From positions 1,337 to 65,336 of the IMG/VR virus record IMGVR_UViG_3300034103_001892: DNA of 64,000 nt, one strand, 5' to 3'. Source of the stretch: a virus (Duplodnaviria; Caudoviricetes). A model generated the notes under the pieces. That model was not told where the DNA came from. It made no database searches and saw only the letters and a list, made by a program, of their open reading frames with translations. The position numbers and the translations under genes are program-made. Shown here in pieces: positions 4,453 through 56,613 of this stretch (position 1 is the stretch's first letter; every line of letters begins with the position of its first letter).

Positions 4453-4492
4453 ACTGTCTCCTTGTAGTAATTATAATTACTGTATTGCCTGT

Positions 4493-4521
4493 ATTATAAC
4501 AGGTTGTGAATATTTGGTCAA
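4493..4521 (-). promoter_or_regulatory. sigma70-type promoter
   Basis: Minus strand TTGACC, 17-nt spacer, TATAAT, upstream of 3322..4452. Confidence 0.75.
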
Positions 4522-11097: not shown

Positions 11098-12656
11098 TGT
11101 GCAATCTCCATGATATATCCTGCTGATACACCATTTTCATAAGCATCTTGTCCTAAGCTTCCTATAGTTCTATTCAAAGCGAAAGTATATGTCGACGTGC
11201 CGCGCACGGCTGGATAATAAGTGCGTGTTGTGGTATCATTTGAAGGTGCTGTAAAAAACAAAAACCAGTTGCTCATTGTGGAACTTTCATCTTGATCGTA
11301 ACGACCACTCATAATACCATTTTGTACCTGATTATTTTGCGTATTGTTAAAACCTTGAAAACCAGGTTGGCCTATAAGTCCATTATCAGTCCAAATTACA
11401 AATGTGTTATCTTGATGTAATTCTCCGTTTATCATCCATTTCATGACTAATAAACTATTAGATTTTTTTGGTGTAATAGTCAAACCAAGTTCACCGATGG
11501 GCGTTCCATCTGACGTTGAAGACGTATAGGTTAATCTTGCATCGGTTCTTCTATACACAGTTTGTATCACAGATCCGGGCGATGCAAAAGCAGTTGCACT
11601 TGTGCCAGTAACGCTCATTGAAGTATCTACCAGTGGATATCTAATAATCACTATACCAGATCCACCGTTTCCTCCAGGGTTAGTGGCATTGTAGTGAGAA
11701 CCGCCGCCTCCACCTCCACCAGTGTTTGGGCCAGCATTGCCTCCACGAGTGTTGGTTTGCGATCCTGGACTGCCACCGCCGCCTGCATTGCCATTATTAA
11801 AACCTGCGCCACCAAATGTTACGCCAACTGCACCACCGCCACCGCCGCCAATACCTCCATCACCGCCAAACCCATAGCTGTAAGCAGCACCACCTCCGCC
11901 ACCGCCCCAATAAAATACATTGCCTAAAATGTCATTTCTAATACCAGGCCCACCAGTTGCATTTCTTCCGGTTTCCCCACTACTGATACCTGGGCCGCCT
12001 GCTCCACCGCCACCGCCACCGTAGTATTGACCGCCGCCATTGCCGCCACGATAGCCTTGCCCGGCTATGCCATTTCCACCTGATCTAGTGCTACCATCTG
12101 AATATGCACTGGCACCACCACCACTACCCCCATCAGAACCTATCGCACCAGGAGTATAAGGATAATAACTGCTACCACCAAAACCACCACCACCAGCCAT
12201 TATGGCATTAGCGTTGCTTAGATTAGGTCCAGAAAAAATACTGTTACCACCGTTGGTAGCAGGAATTGTAAATTGATGAGCGCCTGGTTGTGGACCTACT
12301 CCATCACCTCTAAATTGACTTCCCCCTGGTGCACCCCAACCCCCTGCGCCCACTGTGATAGTATAGGTACCTCGTATTAAATTGGTAGTTCCTGCTAGTA
12401 CGCCACCACCACCGCCACCACCACCCATGTCCATGCCACCACCTCCGCCGCCGGCCACCACTAGATAATCTACTGTACCGCTGCTGTTGGCAGATGTTAC
12501 AACCAAATTTCCGTTAGAAGTAAAGGTGTGAATTCTATAGGATATACCATTGATTGAAACGTTGGAAACGTTACCGCCTGTGGCTACAATTGGTTGAAAG
12601 GTTGATGTGTAAGAAGAAATTGAAGAAATTGAGTTTACTATTAGTGTCGTGGTCAT
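11094..12656 (-). CDS. Glycine-rich fibre protein with the same C-terminal tip domain
   Basis: YRIHTFTS...VDYLVVAGGGGGG...GGSGIVIIRY glycine-rich domain, then PGSVIQ...WMINGE...YENGVSAGYIMEIAQ. Start set at the ATGA overlap, 12656. Confidence 0.7.
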   Translation of the reverse strand: MTTTLIVNSISSISSYTSTFQPIVATGGNVSNVSINGISYRIHTFTSNGNLVVTSANSSGTVDYLVVAGGGGGGMDMGGGGGGGGVLAGTTNLIRGTYTITVGAGGWGAPGGSQFRGDGVGPQPGAHQFTIPATNGGNSIFSGPNLSNANAIMAGGGGFGGSSYYPYTPGAIGSDGGSGGGASAYSDGSTRSGGNGIAGQGYRGGNGGGQYYGGGGGGAGGPGISSGETGRNATGGPGIRNDILGNVFYWGGGGGGAAYSYGFGGDGGIGGGGGGAVGVTFGGAGFNNGNAGGGGSPGSQTNTRGGNAGPNTGGGGGGGSHYNATNPGGNGGSGIVIIRYPLVDTSMSVTGTSATAFASPGSVIQTVYRRTDARLTYTSSTSDGTPIGELGLTITPKKSNSLLVMKWMINGELHQDNTFVIWTDNGLIGQPGFQGFNNTQNNQVQNGIMSGRYDQDESSTMSNWFLFFTAPSNDTTTRTYYPAVRGTSTYTFALNRTIGSLGQDAYENGVSAGYIMEIAQ

Positions 12657-18600: not shown

Positions 18601-21600
18601 TTTTAATATTGCCCAGGGGCAATGTCAATGCACCACTTGAGTCAAATCTCCATATATTACCATTGATATTACCGTATCTATCACCTGTCACTATGTTTAC
18701 ATTGCCTGCACCGTGACTGATACCGTTGTAGCCCACGCCTGTAGACAGATACAGATCTCCGCCTGGCACTGAACAGCCATCGGTATTGCCTGCACTGATG
18801 CGAAGATCAAAGCCTTTCTCACTGGCAAGGGTGGTTTGCGTTGAGATCCGTCCCGGAACACTATTGGTTGCTGGAACAGTCAAGTTGCCAGTTGAGCCAA
18901 ATGTCCAGGTATTGCCACTGGCCACAACACTTATGTTGCCACTGTTGTTCAGTGTGGCTGAAATGAGATTACCGCCTGAAATGTTGGCAGTGGTTGTGAT
19001 ATTACCTGTGCCACCGATAGTATTGCTACCTAAATTGCTCAACAAAGTAGTTACATTACTATTTCCGTAAGAACTTACAATACCAGTAAGTTGTGAGCCA
19101 TTACCAATAAAATAATTGCCTGTGACATTGCCAGTTGCACTAATCAATCCACCTGTCAACACATTGCCAGCAGTGATGTTGCCCGTGGCTGATACTAAGC
19201 CGCTGGTAATTAGGTTGCCGCCGGTGACGTTGCCAGTGACAGTAGCAGCACCGGTGACCGCCAAAGTCCCAATATTGGCCGTGCCCGTGGTGGTTATGTT
19301 TCCGCCAGTGATGTTGCCGGTAGCAGAGATCAAGCCACCAGTAGTCAAATTGCCACCAGTGACATTGCCAGTTGCGGTGATAAAGGAACTGGCGCTGATA
19401 GAACTTGACACTGCAATGCTACCAGCAACTGTGGCACTACCAGTCAATGCCAATGTTGCAATGTTGGCTGTGCCTGTGGTGGTTAAGTTGCCACCTGTGA
19501 TGTTGCCAGTGGCATCAACTCTGCCGCCAGTGGTAATATTTCCGCCAATCACGTTACTGGTTGCTGATACTATTCCAGTTGAAAGTAAATTTCCACCAGA
19601 TATATTAGCAGATGAAACAATGTTACCTGTAGCAGTCACACGACCACTAGTGGTTAAGTTACCACCAACAACGTTGCCCACTGCAACCACTGATTCAGTG
19701 ACGTTTAGATTTGCTGCATTGACGTTTGCGCTGGTTACAATGTTGCCAACTGCTGTGACCAAACCTTGAGAAACTATGTTGCCTGCTGCTACATTTGAGG
19801 TAGACGTTATATTACCAACAGCAGTGATCAATCCGTTAGTGGTTATGTTGGCACCAGTTACGTTCCCAGATGCGTTTACTAAATTTGTTACAGATAAATT
19901 ATTGCCTTGTAAATTACCAGTGGCTGAAATATTGCCTGTGGAACTTATTGTTCCAGTTGCATTTATATTTCCGGCATTTACGTTTGCAGTGGTGTTTACG
20001 TTTCCAACGGCAGATATCAAACCAGATGAGTTTAAGGTAGACGCAGAAACATTTCCTGTTGCGCTGATGTTTTGTGCAGCGGTAATAGATCCGGTTGTGG
20101 TAATGTTTCCTGAATTGACATTTCCAACTGCGCTGATGTTGCCAGATGAATTTACATTGGCTGCGTTGACATTACCGGCAGAAATTACATTGCCTGTAGC
20201 TGTGATCACGCCAGCTGTGGCAATGTTTCCACCAACAATATTACCAGTGGCAGTTACTAGTCCAGCGGTGCTAATGTTTCCACCAACTACGTTGCCACTA
20301 GCAGTGAGCACACCGGCTGTGGTTATATTACCACCAATGACATTACCAGCCGCAGAAACTACCTGTGATGAATTTAGATTATTTGCATTTACATTACCAC
20401 TTACACTTAGTTGACTGAGTGTGCCAACTGCGGTCAAACTTGATATCAATACATTTGAACTTAAAGTATCGCCAGTTACTAAACCAGCAGGCGCATTAAT
20501 TGACGCGGTAGTTGCGTTTGTTATTTGGCCTCGTGGATCAACTGTTAACACTGGGATTGATGAACTACTACCATAGGTGTTGGCTGTCACACCTGTGTTA
20601 GATATAAAAAATTGTGTTCCGTTTAAACTTAGACCAATGCCAGCAGTGTAACTACCAGCGCCGCTGAACTGTTGCCAAACAATGTTGGTTGTGCCAATTG
20701 TAACCGGCGAATTGGTTATACAAACATAACCAGTGTCGGCGTTGGTTGCTCCAGTTTCTATAAATGTAAAGGCACTGGGTATTTCAGATGGCAAATCAAA
20801 ATCTGTTGATCGTGTTAAAACAAACTGTGCTGTAGCGTTACCAGTGTTAGTAACAATGTAGATACCGTTGTAGGGTTGGTTTAGCCCAACTTCGTTTTTG
20901 ACCAAAACTCTTGCGTTTGCAGAAACAGCAGTGCTGTCAATTGACAGCAACCCATTGGTTGTGGCTGTGATTGTTGCACCTACACCATCAGTGCCATTGT
21001 TGTAGACATAGGTTGGCAATGTTGTGGCAGTTGCCAGCAACACTGACGCTTTTACATCTAAGCCTTGAGCTACACTGTCAACATAAAATTTTGTAGCAGC
21101 ATCTTGCGCCTGCACAGGATTGGCCAACCAGTTAACCACTGCGTTGCTGAAAACCAAGTTCCCGCCAGGCGCAAAGGTAATGTTACCAGTTGAGTTAACA
21201 GTGTTTGCAGTTACTGAGCCAACCACTGATAGGTTACCAGTGGTGGTGTTTGCAGAAACAGCAAGACCAGCAGCAGCCACTGTGGTTGCTGAGATACCCA
21301 CAGCATTTACATTAGCAGCCGAAGTGATATTGCCAGAAGTTGAAACAGTGCTGTTGCTGACAATAGGACGGAAAAAGATTGTTTGAGCGGCGCCAACTTC
21401 AAGACTTTGAATATTATTGACTGTAAAGACAACATTGGCATTAGCGGATGGTATGTTTACCGTGGTACCACCAAACTGAATGTTTGGCGCTGCTGCGGCA
21501 AGTACACCACTTAAAAATCTACCATTACCAAAATAATAATCAACGTTTAAATTACCAGCAAGTTCCAGTCCACCGCTGCCAAGATATATGGTATTAAATC

Positions 21601-21874
21601 TTGCACTGGGGCTACCTAGGTCATACACATTGTCCACTGCCGGAACAATCGAACTTTTAACCTGTGTAATACCTATACCTGACGGTGCCAGCACCAAATT
21701 ACCGTTTATATTGGTAGTGGTGATAGAATTATTAGCAATTCTGACGTTACTGTTGACCGGACCATTTGACCAAATTTGATCAAAGTTTTCGTTGATTGCT
21801 ATAAAAGCATTGCGTAACGGATCGCCGGTGCCATCATTGGGTGCTGCCCCAACATCAATGATATTTTGTGACAT
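12653..21874 (-). CDS. Giant (3073 aa) tail fibre / adhesin-like protein
   Basis: N-terminal IDVGAAPNDGTGDPLRNAF...INENF (T4 gp9/gp10-type anchor), many GN(I/V)(T/S)xxN repeats, two DAATKxYVD modules and a YadA-like AVAIG repeat block. Confidence 0.85.
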   Translation of the reverse strand: MSQNIIDVGAAPNDGTGDPLRNAFIAINENFDQIWSNGPVNSNVRIANNSITTTNINGNLVLAPSGIGITQVKSSIVPAVDNVYDLGSPSARFNTIYLGSGGLELAGNLNVDYYFGNGRFLSGVLAAAAPNIQFGGTTVNIPSANANVVFTVNNIQSLEVGAAQTIFFRPIVSNSTVSTSGNITSAANVNAVGISATTVAAAGLAVSANTTTGNLSVVGSVTANTVNSTGNITFAPGGNLVFSNAVVNWLANPVQAQDAATKFYVDSVAQGLDVKASVLLATATTLPTYVYNNGTDGVGATITATTNGLLSIDSTAVSANARVLVKNEVGLNQPYNGIYIVTNTGNATAQFVLTRSTDFDLPSEIPSAFTFIETGATNADTGYVCITNSPVTIGTTNIVWQQFSGAGSYTAGIGLSLNGTQFFISNTGVTANTYGSSSSIPVLTVDPRGQITNATTASINAPAGLVTGDTLSSNVLISSLTAVGTLSQLSVSGNVNANNLNSSQVVSAAGNVIGGNITTAGVLTASGNVVGGNISTAGLVTATGNIVGGNIATAGVITATGNVISAGNVNAANVNSSGNISAVGNVNSGNITTTGSITAAQNISATGNVSASTLNSSGLISAVGNVNTTANVNAGNINATGTISSTGNISATGNLQGNNLSVTNLVNASGNVTGANITTNGLITAVGNITSTSNVAAGNIVSQGLVTAVGNIVTSANVNAANLNVTESVVAVGNVVGGNLTTSGRVTATGNIVSSANISGGNLLSTGIVSATSNVIGGNITTGGRVDATGNITGGNLTTTGTANIATLALTGSATVAGSIAVSSSISASSFITATGNVTGGNLTTGGLISATGNITGGNITTTGTANIGTLAVTGAATVTGNVTGGNLITSGLVSATGNITAGNVLTGGLISATGNVTGNYFIGNGSQLTGIVSSYGNSNVTTLLSNLGSNTIGGTGNITTTANISGGNLISATLNNSGNISVVASGNTWTFGSTGNLTVPATNSVPGRISTQTTLASEKGFDLRISAGNTDGCSVPGGDLYLSTGVGYNGISHGAGNVNIVTGDRYGNINGNIWRFDSSGALTLPLGNIKIKGTVGNSIAFGLNAGQISQGNAAVAIGSLAGNNRQGNNSVAIGNTAGAGGSVSTNYVSGAESPSTTLVVTSTTGIGPGMIISGTGFFGNITVVTVTNSTTLEISASAGFTPSGTLTFTGSQGDEAVAIGQSAGSTNQGSGAVAVGGLAGYNLQGDNAVAIGGLAGNNSQGTQAVAVGLFAGQEDQGQFSVAIGGGAGQQTQGEESVAIGAGAGSTVQGNAAVAIGGGAGAANQRINSVAIGASAGAGTQGQYAVAIGASAGYTNQGNNSIILNATGANLDQTTANTFTVAPVRNDVANTAQVMFYNTTSKEITYGNTISVAGNITSGNLNSPTLNNSGNVSVVAGGNTWTFGTNGNLTVPGPISGLGFSKLDFTTYGANSAYLTTTADDTTALFMGAVTAELYANTDVSIRANTGGTSQNWIFGQDGALTAPGNLNGVNVNTGIVSATGNVNSGNVNTAKVASTGGITIASGGSSDITLNAAGNINADSNYINNLLDPMQNQDAATKIYVDNLVATGLTYHEQVFVSTTANLATTTGGTITYAQPNGAGNGIGATITTTGSFNLIDTANVQTIGTRILVKNEGNAVLNGVYTWSNATAITRSTDADEYGTDSAHALSLNSYFFTESGNVNKGSAYVVAEPQGTITFGTSNIVFDLFSTSQVYSANTQAGISLVGTVFSAKVDNNTTAFDGGGNISVKAGANLTTPNIGAATGTSLSVTGNVTAGNFNTVGAISASGNILSSNVFATGTVSGNIVTGNSVSASGNVTGANINTNGLISAAGNVISGNVSTGNIVAANVNTGYLLVNTSAGANITGGNLILTEVTGAGGAVSAQGNISGANLNATNISLTGNVLSNLRVNGNVNVSGVVDIANSLTADSLLVDTVGGITANSGNITINQITGQGGYLNAVGANLSANIVAGNVNTGNISLTGNVLSDLNVNGNVDIAGTVGVANSFTADSILVDTAGGITANGGNIVINQITGQGGYLNALGANLSANVIAGNVNTGNISLTGNVLSNLNVNGNASITGILDVANSITADSILVDTIGGITANGGNININQITGQGGNLNAVGISVSGNISGNNITLGNNLSTTGNITAGYFIGDGSQLTNVSIAAGSAIENGNSNVRVAANGNVSVGTYGTIPAVFANTGLYATGLISATGNVDVGSTLNVTSNAAITGNISGGNISASGNISGTYFLGNGSLLSGIITSVANINNGTSNLRIDTAGGNIQANVAGTANIFTINASGIQTSGNASANNLSISNVTNIGVLSVSGNITANGVVTVDGNVTAANLISNGTVSAQGNVIGGNINTAGVVSATGNVVSVANVSGGNILSSLLISAAGNVTGANITSNGAVIALGNVTGGNVNSDGRVSAAGNIVTTANVTGGNLLTSGVLNLTGGTPYNTATLSGGNIILNNGAGDTPGLHFYQGNNDNFGIDVEAGTLRFVKNLDEAGGSAVGRVDSNGNIIAVGQLQGASASVSGNVTGGNIITGGFISATGNITGNYFFGNGSQLSGIITSVANINNGTSNIRIETSGGNIQANVGGTANVWTLASTGEYVSGEISASGNITGNFFFGNGSQLSGIITSVANINNGNSNVRIDSSGGNVAANVGGTANVLVLANTGAFVTGVVSASGNITGNFFIGNGSQLTGIANASSVYSVISLQGNVAGNSAGNVTINAGNVSGTLIPRAGNGIGMVGNATTGVITISVLDSLNDGIFWAGNNSAGLVSDSIDAPNVDNGLVTDSTISNSYDLGPLEYGTSSIISANLIPDNPFVYTLGNTSFPFLSLSVADINSTGNITTTKNVSATGNITAAFFSGDGSALSNVSGSNIRSGNSNVSVTAANGNIALSVTGNSNAVVFAPGLTTFKGNLVPDASNIYSLGSSTLRWTNLWISGNTITLGNIVLNDDNATDFSVYTSNGTTPANVKAQFINTLAYGYNSANLSASGNVSNAFNALSSGPITINSEVTITVNSGAFWTIV
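15390..16090. repeat. About three tandem 243-bp (81-aa) degenerate repeats inside the fibre gene
   Basis: gtgatttgatt/gtgatttggtt units start near 15417, 15660 and 15903. The sequence atttgctgataaattagcaccaa..gcgtttagataaccaccttggcctgtgattt is duplicated almost exactly. Confidence 0.85.
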
Positions 21875-26919: not shown

Positions 26920-27666
26920 TTAACTAGTCCACTTTTCAACTTGCCCAGGAATAACTGTCTGCTGTGCTGTACCAGACTTGATAACTGTACCTTCGTCAGT
27001 GAAGAAGTTGGTTACGTATCTAGTATCACCGGTGATACTGCTGTAGCTATAGTTACTGCCGCCAGTCCAGTCAAGCAACCACTTGTTGGTTAACTTACTG
27101 ATATAGGTAATTGAAGAATCACCTACGCTGAATCCAATTGCCATGAATCCGGCTGCTGGAGTAGCATCATTGTCTAGAACACATACACCAACTTCTTGAC
27201 AGGTACCAGTAGTACCTGCGCCAGCCGCGGCGCTAACTTGGAAAATTGTTCCAACTGCAGCACCAACTGGCGCACCCATGGACAACCAGTTGGTGTCGCC
27301 TAACGCTGCAATGCGAACGCTTACTCCTACCACAGCAGTGGCAGGATCAATAGCGGTATTGGTGGCCACTAAAAACTTGTGTGCCCCTTTTTGACGCAAA
27401 ATAATACCATCATCTACCCCTGTGACACTGTTGGTAATATTAACAATACATTTGACAATAGGGTTGGTTGCTGACGTTGCAGTGGTTCTAAGACCACCAA
27501 CTACACCTAGGTAATCTGCATTGCTGAGTGTGGTAGGATTGACATTGAATTCTGGATCAGTTAACGAACCAAAGTTTGGAAAACCAATGTCTATACCTAC
27601 TGCTGCACCAGGTGAATTAATGCCCGAATTGGTTGAATATTTTTGAATTTTGAGAGGACGTCCCAT
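26920..27666 (-). CDS. Virion structural protein (MGRPLK family)
   Basis: MGRPLKI...GIILRQKGAHKFLV...YISKLTNK, with strong AAGGAG RBS and a late promoter. Confidence 0.6.
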   Translation of the reverse strand: MGRPLKIQKYSTNSGINSPGAAVGIDIGFPNFGSLTDPEFNVNPTTLSNADYLGVVGGLRTTATSATNPIVKCIVNITNSVTGVDDGIILRQKGAHKFLVATNTAIDPATAVVGVSVRIAALGDTNWLSMGAPVGAAVGTIFQVSAAAGAGTTGTCQEVGVCVLDNDATPAAGFMAIGFSVGDSSITYISKLTNKWLLDWTGGSNYSYSSITGDTRYVTNFFTDEGTVIKSGTAQQTVIPGQVEKWTS

Positions 27667-27693
27667 TTTGTTTTCTCCTTAAAGAAGTCCAAT

Positions 27694-27746
27694 GTGGGTT
27701 CTAGCCACTACGCGGGTGGTGTCCCGCATAAGACGCACCATTGCGT
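27694..27746 (-). promoter_or_regulatory. Structured 5' leader with three tandem hairpins
   Basis: acgca/tgcgt, tatgcggg/cccgcgta and gtgg/ccac stems between TAAATA (27760-27755) and the RBS. Confidence 0.55.
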
Positions 27747-27795
27747 TCATATGTTATTTATGTTATAGTACTTTAAATTACCCGTAAATATCAAC

Positions 27796-34844: not shown

Positions 34845-34922
34845 TTTAATCTTTCTCCTTAGTTTGGGGTAAATTTCATTTACCCCAAGGGTAAATGTTA
34901 TAATTTATTTACAGATAATGAA

Positions 34923-34951
34923 AAAAAACCACCGTTTAACGGTGGTTTTTT
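34923..34951. terminator. Perfect inverted repeat, intrinsic terminator
   Basis: aaaaaaccaccgtt-t-aacggtggtttttt, downstream of 34970..35191. Confidence 0.8.
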
Positions 34952-34969
34952 ACTAAAAAATTACAAAAA

Positions 34970-35191
34970 TCATGCCATAGGTGCTGCTGGCGGTGGTGCA
35001 TACATTTCTTTTACTTTTTTCATTTTTTCTGCAAATTCATATGTTCTAAGATCATTCATCTGTCTTAGTTTGTTCAATTGCTTTAAAGTTAATCTAGTTT
35101 TACGTAATTGGCCAAACCTAGGCTGGCTGTTGTCTTGGGCAACATCTTGATATTGTTTGGGATTCCTTTCCCATAATTCTTTAATAATCAT
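34970..35191 (-). CDS. Small conserved head-region protein
   Basis: RKTRLTLKQLNKLRQM; TAAATA 5 nt upstream of the ATG. Confidence 0.65.
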   Translation of the reverse strand: MIIKELWERNPKQYQDVAQDNSQPRFGQLRKTRLTLKQLNKLRQMNDLRTYEFAEKMKKVKEMYAPPPAAPMA

Positions 35192-35199
35192 AACAATAT

Positions 35200-42631: not shown

Positions 42632-43626
42632 TTGTTTGTGTAACCAGTGCTAGATCATCTGGCTGCACTTTCCTTGAGTGGAGCCTGCACTGGTTATCTG
42701 GACAAGATCAATATTATCTAGTTGACGGTGATAAGCTAGAACCTTTGATAACAAATCCCATTGCTGTCGGCGGTGACAACAAGGTCACTGCTCATCAGCA
42801 TACTAAAAATCATCCTCGAGGCCTAATACAAACACAAAAAACAATTACAGCGTTACAAAGTCAACCCAGCAACGGCTTGTATTCCTTTTATCCAATTGCC
42901 AACGAAACTGATTATTGGTGCCTCCAACTTAGACTTGATGCATCAAATCTTCGCAGTGATCATTGGCAAAGCATTTTTCATGCACAGCAACAGGAATTAA
43001 TCAGTATTGGTAACCTGTGTTATCAACACAATATTAAAACAGTATATCTAACTGAATCACCAGAAACCATACCATACTATATTGCCACGAGACATGTACC
43101 ACCGTGGACAAATAGTATAAGTGAAATAGAATATGTGAAACTGTTAACTGGTATCACCCAAGATTTACCAGTGTGGGATCTGCGTGAACGTTTGGCATTG
43201 AGTTTGAGACCAATAGCTGAATCTCCATTCTGTGATTACATCAACCCACACCAGGCTCACTTTAGAATCAGTAATCAAAGCCTGTGGTATGACGGCATTT
43301 ACACTGTGCCAAAGATACTGGATTGGTTAAACTTAAATTTAGTGGACTCAAGATTTGCACAATGGCAAGAGATATATCATCATTGGCAACAGTCACAACT
43401 AGACTACGCACGAATGACTTGGCAGTTGCCTGCAATTGTTGATGCAATTGTTCACAATCACTATTATCTAATACCACCAATGACGCTGGTATACGAAGCT
43501 GCTGTGCAACATTGCCTAATATACCAACATGGATTGAATTTAAAGACATGGAATCTACAACAGTTTCCATCAAATACACAAGACCTACATAAATTACTAG
43601 AACCAAACTTTCACAATATCACTTGA
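42628..43626 (+). CDS. Sulfotransferase-like P-loop protein
   Basis: N-terminal VTSARSSGCTFLEWSL, resembling a 5'-PSB loop; C-terminal W...YHHW helix. Confidence 0.45.
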   Translation: MIVCVTSARSSGCTFLEWSLHWLSGQDQYYLVDGDKLEPLITNPIAVGGDNKVTAHQHTKNHPRGLIQTQKTITALQSQPSNGLYSFYPIANETDYWCLQLRLDASNLRSDHWQSIFHAQQQELISIGNLCYQHNIKTVYLTESPETIPYYIATRHVPPWTNSISEIEYVKLLTGITQDLPVWDLRERLALSLRPIAESPFCDYINPHQAHFRISNQSLWYDGIYTVPKILDWLNLNLVDSRFAQWQEIYHHWQQSQLDYARMTWQLPAIVDAIVHNHYYLIPPMTLVYEAAVQHCLIYQHGLNLKTWNLQQFPSNTQDLHKLLEPNFHNIT

Positions 43627-44188
43627 TGCCAATCACAGTGAATCTTTGATAATCACCGTATACAAATTCATCAGCAAGTAGTAATTTACGCATAGGCCAA
43701 GTTTGCACCAATGCATTGAGATCTTGATATGTACGCAAGCTATCCTCTTGATCTCCAGCATTAAGCACCACCAGTGTGCCCAGGGGAATACGATCAAACC
43801 AGCTGGATCCAGCTATGTCATTACAACTGGCATTGATTATCACGCTGGGTTTACGAGCTTGACGATAGTCTAGTTTGTTTACGTCTTGAATCATGTGTTG
43901 AGCTCTTGCATCCAATCTTTGCATAAACTCTTTGCTTAATTTGATATAGTTTGGTTCTATATCCACGTTTATAATTTTTTTAACTGGAAAATTGTCAAGA
44001 GCCATCAATATGCCAAGATTACCATACCAACTGCCAAGGATATAAGCAACATTAAGCATTGGCACATCAAGTTCATCTAGCACGTAGCGCAGTTGTTGCA
44101 GCAAATCTAACTTACCAAGCATGAGCTCACGGCTAAAGCTACCATCTAAGGTTTCAGGACTGGTTTCATTTTCAGCAAAGTGATTCAT
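43619..44188 (-). CDS. Class I SAM methyltransferase-like protein
   Basis: ILGSWYGNL...INVDIE...VIINASC. Start set at ATG 44188, 5 nt after TAAATA (44199-44194). Confidence 0.65.
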   Translation of the reverse strand: MNHFAENETSPETLDGSFSRELMLGKLDLLQQLRYVLDELDVPMLNVAYILGSWYGNLGILMALDNFPVKKIINVDIEPNYIKLSKEFMQRLDARAQHMIQDVNKLDYRQARKPSVIINASCNDIAGSSWFDRIPLGTLVVLNAGDQEDSLRTYQDLNALVQTWPMRKLLLADEFVYGDYQRFTVIGIK

Positions 44189-44199
44189 AGTAGTATTTA

Positions 44200-44587
44200 C
44201 TTCAAGAACTTCTTCGAAGTTCTGTTGATTCACTTCGTTCATCAACATTGTTTTTAAGAGATATCATCCAGATATTTTGGTCATACTTGCCCGTGTTACC
44301 GGGCAAGGTTGAAGACATCATCCGAGTACGAACGGTCATGTGTATAAAGAGATTGTGTTGCCACGCGGAGGCGGTTGTGCTGTACCTCCTACTCTAGCCT
44401 TGACTCACAACGGAACGCAGGTTATCCCATACACACGAAACACCTTGCGCCGCGGTTGTATCTTTTTATCACAGAGCCGCGATCATTTAGCCTAAGTTAG
44501 CCTATACTTTGACGCCCAAGATCCGCTGGCAACGAGCCTTACCTCGGCTAGCTCAATGGGGCTGAGTCACTACACTCAGCACAGAGT
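44200..44587 (-). ncRNA. Candidate large structured non-coding RNA, family not recognised
   Basis: No convincing ORF. At least eight stems, a 12-bp long-range helix, a ~13-bp pseudoknot and two covarying repeated hairpins, all found by hand. Confidence 0.6.
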
Positions 44588-45103
44588 CTATTGGCAGAGC
44601 AGTTTTACTTGATCTGCATTTAATTCCCAGAACAAATCATAGTCCATGATAAACCAATGTCCATGTTTGCCTGTTGCGTAGTTAAAATGTCTTGTGAAAA
44701 AAAGTTGAGAGTGATTTGGCTGTGCCTGTACTGCTACGTATGTGCCTTTGCGATTGAATTTCATGAAAATGATATTGAAGTCACCCTCATCAGCGACATC
44801 CATACATTGTTCAATCCATATATCAAGTGTTTTACATGAGCCTTGAAAGAGTTGGTGAAATGGAAAATCTTTATAGCTTTTACATTCTGCATTAAAGCGC
44901 GGAAAACTTTGTCCAGGAATGATATCGCCCTTGAAACTGCGTATCTGCCCTTCATGCAAGATCTCTTTGCGATGCTGATTACTGCCCCCAATATAAGCGC
45001 CAGAATGCGGAACACGTATAAAACTTTCACCGTAAAGTTCGGTTAAATGTTTTGCCACGGTGTTCTCCCATGCGTTGCCTTTGGCTTTTTGAGAACTGGT
45101 CAT
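44588..45103 (-). CDS. Holliday junction resolvase-like PD-(D/E)XK nuclease
   Basis: QKAKGNAWEN...RVPHSGA...GDII...NAECKSY, an Hjc-like motif set. Confidence 0.8.
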   Translation of the reverse strand: MTSSQKAKGNAWENTVAKHLTELYGESFIRVPHSGAYIGGSNQHRKEILHEGQIRSFKGDIIPGQSFPRFNAECKSYKDFPFHQLFQGSCKTLDIWIEQCMDVADEGDFNIIFMKFNRKGTYVAVQAQPNHSQLFFTRHFNYATGKHGHWFIMDYDLFWELNADQVKLLCQ

Positions 45104-45116
45104 GCAGAATTGTTTA

Positions 45117-45923
45117 TCATCTTTGTACCACTAGCCTAATATTTCCGTCAACCTCATTACCTATGATCAGTTGTCCATAATCTCTTTGAACAAAGTAATT
45201 TTGATCAACAATATGAAAATTGTAGGGCATGGCTTGTATACAGCTTTCTAAATAAGTTACAACATCTATTAAGTTTGTTTGATCTGGATGTTTATTAAAA
45301 ATTGTATTCCAACCGGAATCTGAGGTCAGTGCTACCATGTTTGCTAAACTAAATGTAACATATCCAACGCCTCCTGGTTTTAACATACTGTAGAAGTCAT
45401 CAACGGTGCTGCTGAATTTGTCTAAAGCACAAAAGTGTAGACTGTTGATTGCAATTAGTCTATCAAAATAGTTTTGATGCCCTGCTACAAACCCCTCGTC
45501 ACATATATCGCCTATGTCAGCATCAGGGTGAAAAGGATCTATGCCAATAATGTTGTCCACAAATGGTTTCAGCAAATTTCCGCCACACCCAAGGTCGTAT
45601 ATTGGGCCGTCAAATTTCAATAAATCTTCAATATAATAAAATGTATTAAAAGTCCAATAGCTGTTGAGTTGGTTTTCTCTTGGAGTTGGAGTGTTGCCTG
45701 GTTGCCCACTGGATGTCCAAATTTCTTTTGTTGTTGGTGCTAGCTTAGACTTGATGTGTTTGTATAGGTCTGTGGTTGGAAAGTATTTGTGCCAATAATC
45801 TTCGTGGTATGGATTCTTGAGTTTTAAAGTTTTGAAAAAGGTTCTAAATTGTTCAACATCAATGGCTTTTAACCAAGATGGATCGCGGACATATTTATCA
45901 TATAACATTATAGTTTGCACCAC
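45117..45923 (-). CDS. Class I SAM methyltransferase
   Basis: IYDLGCGGN...GIDP...AINSLHF...MLKPGG. Confidence 0.75.
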   Translation of the reverse strand: MVQTIMLYDKYVRDPSWLKAIDVEQFRTFFKTLKLKNPYHEDYWHKYFPTTDLYKHIKSKLAPTTKEIWTSSGQPGNTPTPRENQLNSYWTFNTFYYIEDLLKFDGPIYDLGCGGNLLKPFVDNIIGIDPFHPDADIGDICDEGFVAGHQNYFDRLIAINSLHFCALDKFSSTVDDFYSMLKPGGVGYVTFSLANMVALTSDSGWNTIFNKHPDQTNLIDVVTYLESCIQAMPYNFHIVDQNYFVQRDYGQLIIGNEVDGNIRLVVQR

Positions 45924-46480
45924 ATAACTATTTCACCAACGCAAGTATTGTCTGGCGAATCTAAAATCAAATCCACATAATCGCATATGTTTTCTAAATC
46001 AAGCCCGTTACCAGTCCAATTACTTCGACTCTGACTCAAGGGGGTATCTAATCTATCAATAGTAAGCAGTGTGGTTTTAAATGCTACAATACCGGTTTTA
46101 AAACTTTCTGTCCACTGCAAGCTATGTGCTTTTAAACTGGCTTTTGACACTCTATAGGTTTCAAATTCAGGATCAACTGCAACAGTGCGTTCAGTGCCCA
46201 CTGACCCAATGTTGATGATATGTCCACGTTTGCCTAGTTCTTTCCAGGCCTTTGCTACTGAAAACAAAAGTTTTGTTTGAGCAAAATTTGCCCAGGATTC
46301 ATGAAAAGGTCCATCAAATGCATTGTTTACAAAGACATCATATTTTTCACTGAGTTCAACAATTTGTTTCACATTCTTGGTAATATCAAATCCTACTTCG
46401 CGACTAATACTAACTCCGTTGAAGCGATTACAAATAGCCTCACCAAGACCTCGATTGCCACCTGTTACCAGCATTTTCAT
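45908..46480 (-). CDS. Short-chain dehydrogenase/reductase (SDR)
   Basis: LVTGGNRGLG, DVFVNNA, IINIGS, YRVSK. Start at the ATGA overlap, 46480. Confidence 0.85.
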   Translation of the reverse strand: MKMLVTGGNRGLGEAICNRFNGVSISREVGFDITKNVKQIVELSEKYDVFVNNAFDGPFHESWANFAQTKLLFSVAKAWKELGKRGHIINIGSVGTERTVAVDPEFETYRVSKASLKAHSLQWTESFKTGIVAFKTTLLTIDRLDTPLSQSRSNWTGNGLDLENICDYVDLILDSPDNTCVGEIVMWCKL

Positions 46481-47601
46481 TCTTGAGCTCCTTGATCCCA
46501 TACTTTAGTAAATTTGTCACCACAAGTCATAGCACATTCAAACAGGCGTCCTTGATCAAGAGACTTGTTCCAGCTGTCTACTAAGTCTTGCCACATTGGC
46601 ACTGCAAATATATTTTCTAAACTATGATTGTGTATATTCAATTTTTGTAGTCCATAATGCTGTAAAAATTTTCTAATATGATTGTTTTTACCGATACCGC
46701 TGAGTTCGTTGGCTTCAGGCAACTGCCCGGGTTCGTTGAATCTAGCATCATATAAATTATGATTAAAAAAGTTACAGGGCAACACCAATCCTTCGCAATT
46801 GATTGCAACTTTACCACCTTGTAATGCGTCACAGGTAATTGTAGTACTATCAAAGTAATCACGCCAGCTTGTGTATTCAGCTTGTAGTTTTGGTAAACGC
46901 TTGATACTGCGATTTTGATATTCAGCCAATGATGTAGGTCGCAAATATCTTATGGTTTTACCATTGCGATTTTGCACAGGCCACTGGTCTATTGCTGTCA
47001 TTGTTTTATGATTAAAAAACCTTCCAGTGCTACGAAATTGTACGTTACAAAATCCCATTTCAAAAGACAGTTCACGTATCTTTTCTAACTCTTCTTGATT
47101 GTGTTCAAACACAATACAATTCCATTGTGCGCGACCGCCTGCGTTTATAAAAGCTTCTGCATTTTTTAAAACAGTTTTGAATTTTACATTTTGTCTGTAC
47201 ACATGATTGGTTGATGATAATCCGTCAATACCAAAATCAACTTTTCCTAGCCCATTTATGATACGAGCCATGCGTGTCCAATAAGCAGATCCGTGAACTC
47301 CGCCATTGGTATGAATATACAACCAAACGTTGGGATTTTTAGCGCGAAAGTCTTCTAATATGTCTAAAAATTCTGGATGCATGATAGGATCGCCGTAGCT
47401 ACCACAGAAGAAAATCTGTTTGCACTTTGACACTATGTCTTTGGTAAAAGCTTTGGATATCACTGCACGATCTAGATGTTTCAACGGCATGTGAGGATTG
47501 ACACCAGCGCCGTTGATATTTCTTGGACACTGCGGGCAAGCAGCGTTACAATAACTGGTTATTTCTAGTTGGTATTCAGTTATGCTATCAAGATTAAACA
47601 T
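46477..47601 (-). CDS. Radical SAM protein with SPASM/twitch-like Cys-rich C-terminus
   Basis: CNAACPQC, GDP, HTNG, GIDG, GLVLPC, ECAMTCG. Confidence 0.9.
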   Translation of the reverse strand: MFNLDSITEYQLEITSYCNAACPQCPRNINGAGVNPHMPLKHLDRAVISKAFTKDIVSKCKQIFFCGSYGDPIMHPEFLDILEDFRAKNPNVWLYIHTNGGVHGSAYWTRMARIINGLGKVDFGIDGLSSTNHVYRQNVKFKTVLKNAEAFINAGGRAQWNCIVFEHNQEELEKIRELSFEMGFCNVQFRSTGRFFNHKTMTAIDQWPVQNRNGKTIRYLRPTSLAEYQNRSIKRLPKLQAEYTSWRDYFDSTTITCDALQGGKVAINCEGLVLPCNFFNHNLYDARFNEPGQLPEANELSGIGKNNHIRKFLQHYGLQKLNIHNHSLENIFAVPMWQDLVDSWNKSLDQGRLFECAMTCGDKFTKVWDQGAQE

Positions 47602-54768: not shown

Positions 54769-56613
54769 ATGCCAGCACCATTTGACCCGGCCAAGGCCGC
54801 AGTAGTCAACGATTTACTGCAACAAGGATTAACATTAGAGTCTGCAATTCAGCAAGCTGGAATTGCCGCGGATGATGCCTCACAGTATCAGTTAGATGTT
54901 TTACCTGGATCTGGGGAAGTAGGAAAAGTGATTCAACGCGGCAGTAACACGCCATTTGCAGGAGATACCACCGCAGATGTCCCGGTCACACTTAACACTA
55001 CTCAGGGTTCGCAAGCTGATATCAGCGGAGATATCATAGCCACTGATCCAAACTTGATCATAGTTCCGCCCCCGGCACGTATAGAATCAACTGAGCCAGT
55101 GGGCGTTGGTGACGCTGTGAATTATGGAACAGCATACGGTGAACCTGTTGTTTTGCCCACAGTTCCGCAGACAGCCTTAAGCGATCAACAACTTAGACAA
55201 ATCTATCCTGCCCCCGAACCAGATCCAGCAGGGCCGGTGGTAACAGAAGCACAGGCTCTTCAGCAAAATGCACAAAACATTGTGTTAGATCCGCAAGCAG
55301 AAGCCACGCGATTATTGGTGGCTCAGGCTTCAAATCCGGATACCGCTATAGCAGTGCCAGCAGATATCAACACACAATTATCTGATCAAGATGTATCAAT
55401 ATTTTACACTGCTCCACCACTGGTACCTGAGGCAGAGAGAGTTGATCAACCTGCACCAAGCCAAGATCCATTCACTCGACCAACGGAAACTGTTCCACCA
55501 CCAGCCGAGGTAATCACACAGGCAGACAATCCATTTAGACCCCCTGCCCCACCTGTGGAAGTTACTCCTGTTGATTCGCCGGCAAATAATGATACCGATC
55601 CATTAGCGCAGAATCAAGTGCCTGCAGAACCTGCTGTAAGGCCTACCAGTACCACAGTGTCCAGCGGCATAGACCCCACGGTGTTTTTACTAGGTGCTGC
55701 CACGCTGATTGGCCCATCTGTGATTCCATTGCCAGTAAGAGACGGACTGGCACTGGCAGGCACAAACAATGCAAGAAGTCAACAGGTTATCAACACACAA
55801 CGCAGAGCCACTAACTCAAGAGATTGGCGTGTTAAATTAAAACTTGGACCCAATGCAGACTATCTATACAATGCGGCACAACCTGGTGATTTGTTGTTTC
55901 CTTTACGCAGCAATGGCGGCACTGATGGAGTTATATTTCCTTACACACCAAGTATTCAAACCACTTATGCCACAACCTATCAAAAGGTGCCGTTGACACA
56001 CAGCAATCATCAAGGTTTGTTTTATAAAAACAGTTCGGCACAAGTTGTCCAAATCACTGCTACATTCACAGCACAGGACACACAAGAAGCTGACTATCTA
56101 CTGGCAGTGATACACTTTTTACGCAGTGCTGGTAAAATGTTTTATGGACAAGATGCCAATAATGGAGCACCACCACCGGTGTTGTTCTTAAGTGGATTTG
56201 GTGAATTTCAATTCAATAATCATCCGCTGGTACTGGAAAATTTTACCTATAATTTGCCTAACAAAGTGGATTACATACGAGCAAGAAGCTCAAACGATGT
56301 AAACTTGAATCTTCTTCAAAGACAAAATCGTGGTGGCAGCGCATACAATGGACTCAGTGGTGTGCTCACAAGACTGAACACCTTGGTTGAAGTTACTCAA
56401 CGTGTGTTAAAAATAAAACCTGGTGCCAATCCAAATATCATTCCCACGGTGCAAAATACTTTTGAACTAGGTGGCAACAATCCAACCTATGTGCCCACTG
56501 AAATGGAGATATCAATAACATTGATACCAATACAAAGCAGAGAACAAGTCAGCAAACAATTTAGTTTGACAAAGTTTGCTCAAGGCAATTTACAACGAGG
56601 AGGATTCTGGTAA
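54769..56613 (+). CDS. Baseplate tail-tube initiator-like protein with a long Pro/Ala-rich N-terminal extension
   Basis: DWRVKL...GVIFPYTP...THSN...FTAQ...KMFYG...GAPPPVLFLSGFG; AGGAA RBS before ATG 54769. Confidence 0.65.
   Translation: MPAPFDPAKAAVVNDLLQQGLTLESAIQQAGIAADDASQYQLDVLPGSGEVGKVIQRGSNTPFAGDTTADVPVTLNTTQGSQADISGDIIATDPNLIIVPPPARIESTEPVGVGDAVNYGTAYGEPVVLPTVPQTALSDQQLRQIYPAPEPDPAGPVVTEAQALQQNAQNIVLDPQAEATRLLVAQASNPDTAIAVPADINTQLSDQDVSIFYTAPPLVPEAERVDQPAPSQDPFTRPTETVPPPAEVITQADNPFRPPAPPVEVTPVDSPANNDTDPLAQNQVPAEPAVRPTSTTVSSGIDPTVFLLGAATLIGPSVIPLPVRDGLALAGTNNARSQQVINTQRRATNSRDWRVKLKLGPNADYLYNAAQPGDLLFPLRSNGGTDGVIFPYTPSIQTTYATTYQKVPLTHSNHQGLFYKNSSAQVVQITATFTAQDTQEADYLLAVIHFLRSAGKMFYGQDANNGAPPPVLFLSGFGEFQFNNHPLVLENFTYNLPNKVDYIRARSSNDVNLNLLQRQNRGGSAYNGLSGVLTRLNTLVEVTQRVLKIKPGANPNIIPTVQNTFELGGNNPTYVPTEMEISITLIPIQSREQVSKQFSLTKFAQGNLQRGGFW

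What the first reader, a model, noticed from the sequence alone, without database searches (positions are those of the whole stretch)
44200..44587. Candidate ~390-nt highly structured phage ncRNA with a long-range helix and pseudoknot
Seen in sequence (coordinates on +, pairings read on the minus strand): this is the only long non-coding gap in a gene-dense genome. It has hairpin gctgagt/actcagc (44561-44580). A 12-bp long-range helix pairs gttgcca-gcgga (44522-44533) with tccgc-g-tggcaac (44357-44369) and encloses inner stems cgcgg/ccgcg, gcgca-aggt/acct-gcgt and ggaggt/gcctcc; the last overlaps the long helix and competes with it. The loop sequence gtgtgtat-gggat (44424-44436) can pair with atctc-tt-tatacacat (44338-44353) outside that helix, forming a ~13-bp pseudoknot. 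An 8-bp hairpin cttgcccg/cgggcaag lies at 44286-44307, with two further hairpins at about 44205-44246. I see no tRNA, tmRNA, RNase P or group I/II intron signature. Inference: a large structured RNA in the sense of GOLLD/ROOL/HEARO-type motifs, possibly unnamed, transcribed at the end of the gp55-gp47-gp46-resolvase unit and directly behind a nuclease gene. A structured ssDNA origin or packaging site is an alternative.
Basis: partly seen in the sequence, partly recalled or inferred. Interest (0 to 1): 0.85.

Follow-up and report, generated by a model that had tools for sequence, protein, structure and literature searches.

The report
Twin-word knotted RNA of giant phages
The gene-free gap encodes a real, intricately folded and doubly knotted non-coding RNA of about 330 bases, shared by well over a hundred uncultured giant lake phages, that shows the same fast-changing 7-letter word twice to a reader that is still unknown.

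Summary
The gap 44249-44587 holds a real structured RNA gene on the minus strand (about 44258-44588). A homologue lies in 179 of 200 related viral loci fetched. On 109 distinct copies my 78-pair structure is 85.8% paired against 74.5% in shuffles, and 63 pairs change on both sides. G-U cells outnumber A-C cells 1150 to 194, and there is no coding signal.

Its 12-bp long-range helix is not conserved. The single-sequence fold is no better than shuffles.

No Rfam family matches the window. Sister copies share the 3' two-thirds but carry Rfam Polynucleobacter-1 (RF01718) as their 5' part.

Two boxes 54 nt apart carry an identical 7-nt word. It changed about 34 times on the tree, always in both boxes, and has no complement in cis.

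The RNA starts a median 11 nt after a small nuclease gene, PDDEXK or GIY-YIG and never both. Function is unknown. My best guess is a trans-acting recognition RNA.

This scan has already reported the family on other DNA.

The parts
44258..44588 (-). Whole conserved RNA, about 330 nt. I number it g0 = 44588, so gN = 44588 - N. The 5' end is set by helix P1. The 3' end is set by the loss of conservation a few bases after box 2.
   Evidence: nhmmer match at 44261-44577; alignments A1 and A2; structure counts
44511..44588 (-). 5' three-way junction. It comprises P1 (44586-44588 with 44511-44513, overlapping the nuclease stop codon), hairpin Ha (44561-44580), and P2 (44557-44560 with 44515-44518), which encloses the variable hairpin Hb (44525-44552) and the invariant CCCAUUGAG.
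   Evidence: P1 is 100% paired, with 3 of 3 pairs changed on both sides. P2 is 100% paired, with 3 of 4 pairs changed on both sides. Ha has 7 of 7 pairs changed on both sides. Visible swaps include GAC/GUC, GGC/GCC and GCAAC/GUUGC.
44488..44503 (-). Hairpin Hc, with a conserved loop UAACUU(A)AG.
   Evidence: 4 of 4 pairs changed on both sides; 84.7% of cells paired; alignment
44452..44480 (-). Hairpin P4 (GCGG/CCGC plus inner UGUG/UACA).
   Evidence: 99.3% and 97.3% paired; the highest mutual information in the alignment
44415..44450 (-). Hairpin P5. Its loop forms pseudoknot PK1.
   Evidence: 14 pairs, 13 changed on both sides, 93.2% paired
44427..44435 (-). PK1 5' strand (UGUGUAUGG). It pairs with 44339-44347 (UUAUACACA).
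   Evidence: Own partners complement over a mean of 6.92 nt against 4.92 for permuted partners; at least 6 bp in 84 of 109 copies
44367..44411 (-). H-type pseudoknot PK2. S1 is 44406-44411 with 44374-44379. S2 is 44384-44389 with 44367-44372. It holds the near-invariant GG(A/G)GGUACNGNNCAACCGCCUCC.
   Evidence: S1 is 99.7% paired, with 4 of 6 pairs changed on both sides. S2 is 100% paired.
44348..44395 (-). Helix Px (44392-44395 with 44348-44351). It encloses S2 and the variable expansion hairpin 44355-44364.
   Evidence: 4 of 4 pairs changed on both sides; 93.3% paired
44317..44326 (-). Box 1: CUC followed by the 7-nt word GGAUGAU.
44286..44307 (-). Hairpin H3 between the two boxes (CUUGCCCG/CGGGCAAG).
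   Evidence: Its 5' strand is also complementary to 44399-44402.
44263..44272 (-). Box 2: UCU followed by the same 7-nt word GGAUGAU, 54 nt after box 1.
44588..45103 (-). Upstream gene: a 171-aa PDDEXK_15 nuclease, called 'RusA-like resolvase' in cultured relatives. It is probably co-transcribed with the RNA.
   Evidence: Pfam E = 1.2e-25; annotations; distance to the RNA
43619..44248 (-). Downstream 209-aa ORF on the same strand. It is not part of the family: no relative in viral contigs, and the downstream gene is convergent in 142 of 179 loci.

Best explanation
This is a gene for a non-coding RNA of giant T4-like phages.

Shown:
- It is read from the minus strand.
- It begins at the stop codon of the small nuclease gene, so it is most likely made as the 3' extension of that transcript.
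- It folds into a compact scaffold: a 5' three-way junction, three hairpins and two pseudoknots.
- Its 3' part is a duplicated module (helix end, UGAC, short spacer, CUC or UCU, then the word). The module displays two copies of one 7-nt word, apparently single-stranded.

Inferred:
- The RNA acts in trans. The scaffold holds the two words in a fixed geometry for a reader that recognises the same short sequence twice.
- The word is the specificity determinant and is set per genome.
- Whether the neighbouring nuclease is the effector is open. I put it at about 1 in 5.
For: Real and conserved:
- Found in 59 of 80 loci fetched by the nuclease and in 179 of 200 loci overall.
- One copy in each of three complete 337-347 kb genomes.

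Structure:
- 85.8% of cells are paired, against 74.5% shuffled and 52% or less when the partner is slid.
- 63 of 78 pairs change on both sides. The covariation score is 0.323, against 0.131 shuffled.
- PK1 and H3 hold when checked copy by copy.

RNA strand and non-coding:
- 1150 G-U cells against 194 A-C cells.
- Lengths fall 33/37/39 modulo 3, and variability has no 3-periodicity.

Co-transcription:
- P1 starts within -3 to +30 nt of the upstream stop codon in 86 of 99 copies.
- The upstream ORF is on the same strand in 160 of 179 loci. The downstream ORF is convergent in 142 of 179.

Twin word:
- The 6-nt word core is identical in 168 of 180 copies.
- Mutual information between the boxes is 0.81-0.87. 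The best other column reaches 0.39 at most.
- On a tree built without the box columns, the word changes 34 times. Positions 1, 5 and 7 change 14/15, 10/10 and 12/11 times in box 1/box 2.
- Independent pairs go the same way in 8 of 8, 5 of 5 and 5 of 6 cases.
- There is no 6-nt complement anywhere in the RNA.

Genome-specific word:
- Four diverged paralogues in Cronobacter phage GAP32 all carry CGUCAG(U) in both boxes.
- The E. coli phage Turkey5 copy carries CGUCAA.
Against: - No expression data: no RNA run holds the sequence.
- No promoter or consistent terminator defines a discrete transcript. A terminator-like site follows box 2 in 26 of 162 loci, against 6 of 156 control windows. None is found in the window.
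- No reader was found. The word and its complement are not enriched in the flanks: 232 occurrences against 194 in the control.
- No antisense site exists for box 2 in two complete genomes of this clade.

Against a nuclease partnership:
- The same words follow both nuclease folds.
- No nuclease residue tracks the word, though the test had little power.
- 21 of 80 PDDEXK loci show no RNA by nhmmer. Only 1 of those 21 gives even a marginal match to the RNA model.
- Cultured phages SCTP-2, PA5oct and Phosso have the nuclease with no gap behind it.

Thirty-four coordinated changes are hard to reconcile with a separately encoded reader, which would have to change each time as well.
Confidence: 0.5

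Rival explanations
1. A cis-acting 3' UTR element. The fold protects the nuclease operon's mRNA from 3' exonucleases. Alternatively it insulates or terminates transcription where two convergent units meet, and it has no trans role.
For: It starts right after the upstream stop codon and sits between convergent genes in 142 of 179 loci. No intrinsic terminator follows consistently, so the structure itself could define the 3' end.
Against: Some 330 nt with two pseudoknots, dozens of invariant unpaired bases and a lock-step twin word is far more than 3' protection needs. The GAP32 paralogues sit in gaps flanked by same-strand genes. The upstream gene is replaceable: PDDEXK, GIY-YIG, or an extra roughly 1-kb ORF in between.
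Confidence: 0.15
2. A conformational switch or ligand sensor. The RNA toggles between two folds. One has P1 plus the full hairpin H3. The other has two long-range helices, 44510-44513 with 44280-44283 and 44399-44402 with 44304-44307.
For: Both alternatives are 95-97% paired, with changes on both sides. The competing strands co-vary identically.
Against: Covariation cannot tell the alternatives apart. There is no downstream gene to regulate in most loci. No riboswitch family matches even at E <= 10. It does not explain the twin word.
Confidence: 0.1
3. The two words are matching sites, where identity itself is the requirement. They could be two equivalent cleavage or ligation sites that release or circularise the 54-nt unit. 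They could be take-off and landing sites for a polymerase or a recombination event. They could also form a parallel homo-paired contact between the two boxes.
For: The identity is position by position in parallel register, with a constant offset of 54. The sequence is otherwise nearly free: 11 different words. The frequent coordinated change is easier if no third partner must follow. A stable hairpin sits between the boxes.
Against: Four diverged paralogues in one genome keep the same word, which identity within one molecule does not require. No copy lacking the 54-nt unit was noticed among the 179 loci, though this was not searched for. No recombinase, reverse transcriptase or ligase gene is a constant neighbour.
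Confidence: 0.12
4. A DNA-level element: a single-stranded origin, a packaging site or a homing-endonuclease target. It would not be an RNA.
For: It lies next to recombination and nuclease genes. G-T wobble is also possible in ssDNA. Free-standing GIY-YIG genes tend to sit next to conserved targets.
Against: There is strong strand asymmetry and compensatory change in 63 of 78 pairs, including two pseudoknots. Orientation relative to the upstream gene is fixed in 160 of 179 loci. The sister subclass's 5' third is scored as an RNA family by Rfam at 93-120 bits.
Confidence: 0.05
5. A chance fold or an unannotated small protein gene.
For: The single-sequence z-score is only -0.95. A 45-aa ORF (44202-44339) crosses the 3' part.
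Against: Conservation and covariation hold across 109 distinct copies. Lengths are evenly spread modulo 3, and there is no codon periodicity.
Confidence: 0.01

Closest known systems
Polynucleobacter-1 RNA motif (Rfam RF01718; Weinberg et al. 2010, Genome Biol 11:R31, PMC2864571; I saw only its row in the main-text table)
   Same: In 18 related loci RF01718 scores 93-120 bits. These are L024 and 17 of 20 loci. There it sits exactly where the window's 5' domain sits, right after the nuclease gene. It is followed by a 3' part homologous to the window's: P5/PK1, PK2, H3 and the twin boxes. By eye, the 3' half of RF01718 and the window share the order CUAnC(C)UUAAGG, then a GAUCGC hairpin. The habitat is the same, fresh water.
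   Different: RF01718 does not match the window even at E <= 10. The window's first roughly 100 nt (P1, Ha, P2, Hb) look different. The Rfam model is 141 positions long and stops before the twin-box part. The 2010 table lists it as a possible cis-regulator, whereas here most downstream genes are convergent.
The same unnamed twin-word RNA family, reported earlier by this scan on other DNA (notes e1-5653951, e1-6126623, e1-6088262, e1-6091357, e1-5973558, e1-5970311, e1-6120936, e1-6081378, e1-6106401)
   Same: A small nuclease gene in front, two pseudoknots, a twin 7-nt word, an unknown reader, and distant copies in cultured jumbo phages. I re-derived each of these here before or without relying on the notes.
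   Different: This window is the subclass with a PDDEXK nuclease in front and without the RF01718 5' part.
GOLLD, ROOL and HEARO/omega RNAs (Rfam; large ornate RNAs, some in phages; for GOLLD and ROOL I saw only a search listing)
   Same: Large, highly structured, of unknown or recently found function, and often phage-borne. HEARO sits next to a nuclease gene.
   Different: No sequence or structure match at Rfam gathering score or at E <= 10. It is smaller than GOLLD or ROOL. The neighbours are PDDEXK or GIY-YIG, not IscB or TnpB. No guide-like complement was found in the flanking DNA.
Paralogous RNAs in cultured Cronobacter phage GAP32 and Escherichia phage Turkey5
   Same: The 3' domain matches model R1 over its full length: 19.7-21.1 bits, E = 0.035-0.07 per genome. 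The PK2 core is CCGUUG...AG(R)GAGAAAC(A/C)G(R)(R)CAACCCGCUU(U/C)CG. There is a GC hairpin between two boxes, and the boxes carry twin words. All copies lie in 650-900 nt intergenic gaps. One GAP32 copy lies next to the EndoVII and gp46 genes.
   Different: They are about 430 nt long and present in four or more copies per genome, against one per genome in the window's clade. The word is CGUCAG or CGUCAA. The scores are marginal, so homology rests on shared architecture.

Membership tests
Rfam RF01718 Polynucleobacter-1 | Covariance-model score at or above the gathering score of 37 bits | tested here: not met
   No match in the window or in its 65-kb record, even at E <= 10. Of 14 mostly window-type loci, only L024 matched.
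Rfam RF01718 Polynucleobacter-1 | Same genomic slot and same downstream RNA domains as bona fide members | tested here: met
   RF01718 hits start 9-60 nt after the nuclease gene. They are followed by the shared P5/PK1, PK2, H3 and twin-box part in 18 loci.
Rfam RF01718 Polynucleobacter-1 | Homology of the 5' domains themselves | tested here: inconclusive
   I see only a local resemblance by eye, CUAnCUUAAGG and then a GAUC-stem hairpin. No profile comparison was run.
Twin-word jumbo-phage RNA (unnamed) | H-type pseudoknot around GGGGGUACNGNNCAACCGCCUCC with an upstream CCGUUG | tested here: met
   S1 is 99.7% paired and S2 100% paired. The window reads GGAGGUACAGCACAACCGCCUCC.
Twin-word jumbo-phage RNA (unnamed) | Two boxes with an identical variable word flanking a GC hairpin | tested here: met
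   The window has GGAUGAU at 44317-44323 and at 44263-44269. The 6-nt word core is identical in 168 of 180 copies.
Twin-word jumbo-phage RNA (unnamed) | A small nuclease gene immediately upstream on the same strand | tested here: met
   PDDEXK_15, with its stop codon inside P1. Family-wide, the 120 loci found by the RNA motif alone have GIY-YIG in 90, PDDEXK in 13, neither in 4, and too little upstream DNA in 13.
GOLLD / ROOL / HEARO / OLE / raiA and other Rfam large RNAs | Match to the family covariance model | tested here: not met
tRNA, tmRNA, RNase P, group I/II introns | ARAGORN or Rfam match; for introns, flanking exons | tested here: not met
   The downstream gene is convergent in 142 of 179 loci.
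Guide RNAs of RNA-guided nucleases or recombinases (omega RNA, bridge RNA) | An adjacent IscB, TnpB or IS110-type protein, and guide segments complementary to flanking or target DNA | tested here: not met
   The neighbours are PDDEXK or GIY-YIG. There is no excess or fixed position of the word or its complement in the flanks.
Type III toxin-antitoxin RNA | Tandem repeats upstream of an endoribonuclease toxin gene, separated from it by a terminator | tested here: not met
   The RNA lies downstream. Only the 7-nt word and a short UGAC motif are repeated. The neighbours belong to DNA-nuclease families.

The most novel reading that the evidence does not exclude
The RNA is a programmable recognition subunit. 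The words base-pair with a target carrying the complementary word twice, or on both strands. They would direct a dimeric effector, possibly the small PDDEXK or GIY-YIG nuclease encoded just upstream. That would make a minimal RNA-guided nuclease or regulator with restriction-enzyme-like specificity that retargets by two point mutations. The fast turnover of the word would then be an arms-race signature. The two antisense sites of 11 and 14 nt inside unrelated GAP32 genes would be the first candidate targets.
Probability: 0.1. Interest if true: 0.95.

Novelty: new variant of a known kind. Interest (0 to 1): 0.75.

Why it matters
Large RNAs with this much conserved tertiary structure are rare, and nearly every one whose function was solved turned out to be a ribozyme, a riboswitch or the core of an RNP.

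This one is single-copy in complete 340-kb phage genomes. It is widespread in lakes and has distant multi-copy relatives in cultured E. coli and Cronobacter phages, so it can be studied at the bench.

The twin word is a feature I could not match to any RNA class searched here. Two unpaired sites are kept identical through about 34 changes, and the word is shared by diverged paralogues within one genome. That makes one sharp question directly testable: what reads a 7-letter word twice?

In the searchable literature, only the 141-nt 5' fragment of a sister subclass is catalogued, as one table row from 2010. The full RNA, its pseudoknots and the twin word are not in print as far as could see.

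Tried and rejected
- Expression: 24 public runs hold the stretch, all lake-water DNA kept as contigs. No RNA holder is listed. Read laying was not used, because contigs cannot show transcripts.
- BLAST of the gap, and of a consensus-like copy, against 50,697 phage records. Nothing for the gap. Only one 27-nt chance match for the copy.
- The 209-aa downstream ORF has no relatives in viral contigs. DUF6614 has no match in cultured phages.
- Twin word as a genome-wide motif or promoter. CTNGGATGAT with up to 1 mismatch occurs 18 times in the window, against 11.3 +/- 3.5 expected. Rejected.
- tRNA reader. There are no tRNA genes in the window. Of the 12 loci scanned, most of them carrying rare words, only L098 has one, a tRNA-Leu(TAG) that does not fit its word. 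No support.
- Closing stem around the boxes. For box 1, own stems average 3.25 bp against 2.97 +/- 0.10 permuted, which is marginal. For box 2 there is none.
- Self-pairing of the two boxes, CsrA-type GGA sites, k-turn or C/D-box readings, and a translational-bypass reading. I considered each by eye and dropped it, because the common word variants (AGAUGA, GGAUAA) or the lack of any conserved frame break it.
- Co-variation of neighbouring proteins with the word. The best columns are hypervariable positions. For the best GIY-YIG column only 2 independent pairs lie on supported branches, so the test has no power.
- A second weak HMM match in the window (54975-55058, E = 0.002) lies inside a 620-aa ORF. 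I take it as chance.
- Bacterial genomes. The motif gave 4 stretches. Two are full copies on 148-kb and 183-kb contigs of one 'Haliscomenobacter' MAG, probably binned phage DNA. The other two match only the roughly 25-nt motif, and the one I read lies in GC-rich, apparently coding sequence.
- Model R1 ended up with only 6 base pairs, because RNAalifold was run on a MAFFT alignment. It works almost as a sequence profile.
Full report
**What is there.** The window is a 64-kb piece of a 65,336-base IMG/VR virus record, which CheckV estimates at 19% complete. Its gp46-like protein is closest to the Pseudomonas jumbo phage PA5oct group (51% identity), then to Phosso, Atu_ph07 and the Rak2-like phages. 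The stretch 44249-44587 lies between two minus-strand ORFs. One is 44588-45103, a 171-aa PDDEXK_15 nuclease (Pfam E = 1.2e-25). The other is 43619-44248, a 209-aa ORF with only a sub-threshold methyltransferase hit. The gap is a GC island: 0.50-0.51 against 0.31-0.46 in the flanks.

**Checks on the single sequence.**
- Rfam finds nothing in the gap at gathering score. At E <= 10 it finds only two chance snoRNA hits.
- ARAGORN finds no tRNA or tmRNA.
- The minimum-free-energy fold of the minus strand is -105.3 kcal/mol, z = -0.95, and 15 of 100 shuffles fold as well. The plus strand gives z = -0.96.
- On its own, then, the sequence does not stand out. The comparative evidence says otherwise.

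**Conservation.** The nuclease protein has 544 relatives in viral contigs, of which 80 loci were kept.
- The gap sequence recurs downstream of the nuclease gene, in the same orientation, in 59 of those 80 loci. The other 21 gave nothing. A later covariance-model search found one marginal match among those 21.
- In all, 179 of the 200 fetched loci carry the element. There are 129 full-length matches and 110 distinct full-length sequences, the window included. Median identity to the window is 64%.
- The window itself has one copy. So does each of three complete 337-347 kb genomes with terminal repeats.

**Structure.** I numbered the RNA g0 = 44588 and derived helices from mutual information and from stems that stay complementary. 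I then counted them with the tool on alignment A2. A2 holds 109 of the 110 distinct copies. L098 was left out because it carries a long insertion.
- For 78 pairs in 15 helices, 85.8% of cells form standard pairs. Column shuffles give 74.5% (0 of 500 reach the observed value). Sliding the partner gives 52% or less.
- 63 pairs change on both sides, against 41.4 in shuffles. The covariation score is 0.323, against 0.131 shuffled and 0.09 or less slid.
- MAFFT misaligns two helices, the pseudoknot PK1 and the 3' hairpin H3, so I checked them copy by copy.
  - PK1: own partners complement over a mean of 6.92 nt, against 4.92 +/- 0.11 for permuted partners. The pairing is at least 6 bp in 84 of 109 copies and 9 bp in the window.
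  - H3: at least 7 bp in 108 of 109 copies, with 37 distinct stems.
- The fold runs as follows:
  - a 5' three-way junction (P1, Ha, P2/Hb);
  - hairpin Hc, with the conserved loop UAACUUAAG;
  - hairpins P4 and P5;
  - PK1, from the P5 loop to a segment about 85 nt downstream;
  - an H-type pseudoknot PK2 around the near-invariant GGGGGUACNGNNCAACCGCCUCC;
  - helix Px, enclosing a variable expansion hairpin;
  - the 3' twin-box module.

- The hairpins, the three inner stems, the 8-bp hairpin and the pseudoknot are right.
- The 12-bp long-range helix is specific to the window and its close relatives. Eight of its 12 pairs are paired in only 13-59% of cells.
- The hairpins at 44205-44246 lie in the next ORF.

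**Strand and coding.** G-U cells outnumber A-C cells 1150 to 194, so the folded strand is the window's minus strand. Lengths fall 33/37/39 modulo 3, variability has no 3-periodicity, and no frame stays open.

**Transcription context.**
- P1 begins within -3 to +30 nt of the upstream stop codon in 86 of 99 copies, with a median of 11 nt. In the window the stop codon is part of P1. That leaves no room for a promoter, and none stands out.
- The upstream ORF is on the same strand in 160 of 179 loci. The downstream ORF is convergent in 142 of 179. The RNA is therefore not a 5' leader.
- A terminator-like hairpin follows box 2 in only 26 of 162 loci, against 6 of 156 control windows.
- No public RNA run holds the sequence, so expression is inferred and not shown.

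**The nuclease neighbour.**
- Among the 120 loci found through the RNA motif alone, a minimal GIY-YIG (SegE-type, about 142 aa) gene precedes the RNA in 90 and a PDDEXK_15 gene in 13. Neither precedes it in 4, and 13 have too little upstream DNA. No locus has both.
- Two unrelated nuclease folds in one slot suggests a link, but the evidence against an obligate pair is as strong.
  - 20 or 21 of 80 PDDEXK loci lack the RNA.
  - Cultured phages with the PDDEXK homologue have no gap behind it.
  - The same words follow both folds.
  - No nuclease residue tracks the word, although that test had almost no power.

**The twin word.** The 3' part holds two copies of one module: a helix end, (A)UGAC, 4-6 nt, CUC or UCU, then a word.
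- The 6-nt word core is identical in both boxes in 168 of 180 copies. Some of the other 12 are cut by contig ends, and L003 and L004 differ by one base. Eleven different words occur: AGAUGA 66, GGAUGA 46, GGAUAA 21, AGAUAA 21 and seven rarer ones.
- Identity extends to position 7. Mutual information between the boxes is 0.81-0.87, while the best other column reaches 0.39 at most.
- On a tree built without the box columns, the word changes 34 times. Independent pairs go the same way in 8 of 8 (position 1), 5 of 5 (position 5) and 5 of 6 (position 7) cases.
- No 6-nt complement exists anywhere in the RNA.
- The word and its complement are not enriched or fixed in position in the flanks: 232 occurrences against 194 in the control.
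- The motif is not genome-wide.
- Two further segment pairs also co-vary identically, but each of these has a complementary partner. They are CAAG at g186-189 and g299-302, both complementary to g281-284, and GAC at g0-2 and g306-308, both complementary to g75-77. An alternative conformer is therefore possible.

**Relation to known families.**
- RF01718 does not match the window or its record, even at E <= 10.
- It scores 93-120 bits in 18 related loci: L024, and 17 of 20 loci.
- In those loci my profile had matched only the 3' part. RF01718 sits exactly in the slot of the window's 5' domain.
- So the catalogued 141-nt motif is the 5' third of a larger RNA. Its uncatalogued remainder is homologous to the window's RNA from P5 onward.
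- In the held literature the name occurs in one paper, and in its main text only as a table row: 'RNA y, cis-reg y, switch ?; Burkholderiales, fresh water/estuary'. Supplements are closed and may say more.
- Two wider searches listed nothing on such a phage RNA.

**Cultured relatives.**
- A model of the 3' domain (R1) gives full-length but marginal matches in Cronobacter phage GAP32 and Escherichia phage Turkey5: 19.7-21.1 bits, E = 0.035-0.07 per genome. All lie in 650-900 nt intergenic gaps.
- They share the PK2 core, the GC hairpin and the twin words.
- An 11-mer from box 2 then revealed more copies.
- Four GAP32 paralogues, near 35.6, 178.0, 262.0 and 341.2 kb, align over about 430 nt at 65% column identity. 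All carry CGUCAG(U) in both boxes. The 178-kb copy lies beside the EndoVII and gp46 genes.
- The Turkey5 copy carries CGUCAA.
- The word is thus specific to the genome, not to the copy. That favours a shared trans reader over a purely intramolecular need for identity.

**A post-hoc lead.** The GAP32 box-2 11-mer occurs twice in antisense inside two unrelated genes, where about 0.09 such matches are expected. One of the two sites extends to 14 complementary bases. No such sites exist in two complete genomes of the window's clade.

**Verdict.** This is a real, single-copy, roughly 330-nt, doubly pseudoknotted ncRNA gene. It is a new variant of the RNA family whose sister subclass begins with Polynucleobacter-1. 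This scan has reported the family before on other DNA, and my results agree with those notes. How it works remains open. My best-supported reading is a trans-acting scaffold that shows one genome-specific word twice.

Noticed in passing
window 27664-27750 (-): A full-length freshwater-2 RNA (Rfam RF02980): 73.3 bits against a gathering score of 49.9. It ends in AAGGAGAAAACAaAAUG, that is, just before a start codon.
   Followed up: no
window 34845-35199: This is the only other stretch of at least 200 nt without an ORF of 90 aa or more. It holds a 73-aa same-strand ORF (34970-35191). About 125 nt remain (34845-34969), with many weak hairpin-type Rfam hits around 34907-34955. It is probably a terminator.
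   Followed up: partly
window 12653-21874 (-): A single ORF of 3073 aa. It is very large even for a jumbo phage.
   Followed up: no
window 45117-47601 (-): Between the nuclease and the gp46/47-like genes lie a weak methyltransferase-like ORF (268 aa), a short-chain-dehydrogenase-like ORF (197 aa) and a radical SAM ORF (374 aa). Together they may form a nucleotide or cofactor modification cassette.
   Followed up: no
GAP32 record NC_019401.1, 47227-47237 and 264888-264898 (loci L223, L222): Two unrelated protein genes, GAP32_094 and GAP32_351, carry the exact reverse complement of the RNA's box-2 11-mer. In GAP32_094 the match extends to 14 nt. Both sites fall in the same codon phase, about 105 and 146 nt into the gene. 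They are possible antisense targets, found post hoc.
   Followed up: partly
GAP32 record NC_019401.1, 341071-341184 (locus L218): The annotated 37-aa gene GAP32_503A lies inside one of the RNA paralogues. It is probably an annotation artefact.
   Followed up: no
L205 and L206 (two contigs of 148 and 183 kb in one 'Haliscomenobacter sp.' MAG): Each contig carries a full-length copy of the RNA (E = 2e-87 and 1.6e-85). The contigs are probably jumbo-phage DNA binned into a bacterial MAG. If so, the MAG hints at a host or at contamination.
   Followed up: partly
L005-L008, L012, L014, L002 (about 3513-4520) and L025/L026, L048/L049, L068: In these loci an extra ORF of 260-344 aa with no Pfam match sits between the PDDEXK gene and the RNA. 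The RNA therefore keeps its place while the gene in front of it can change.
   Followed up: partly
L027, L032, L052, L114, L169, L098: The hairpin after PK2 (window 44355-44364) is an expansion site. These copies carry insertions of 40-70 nt there, or in L098 between S1 and Px.
   Followed up: no
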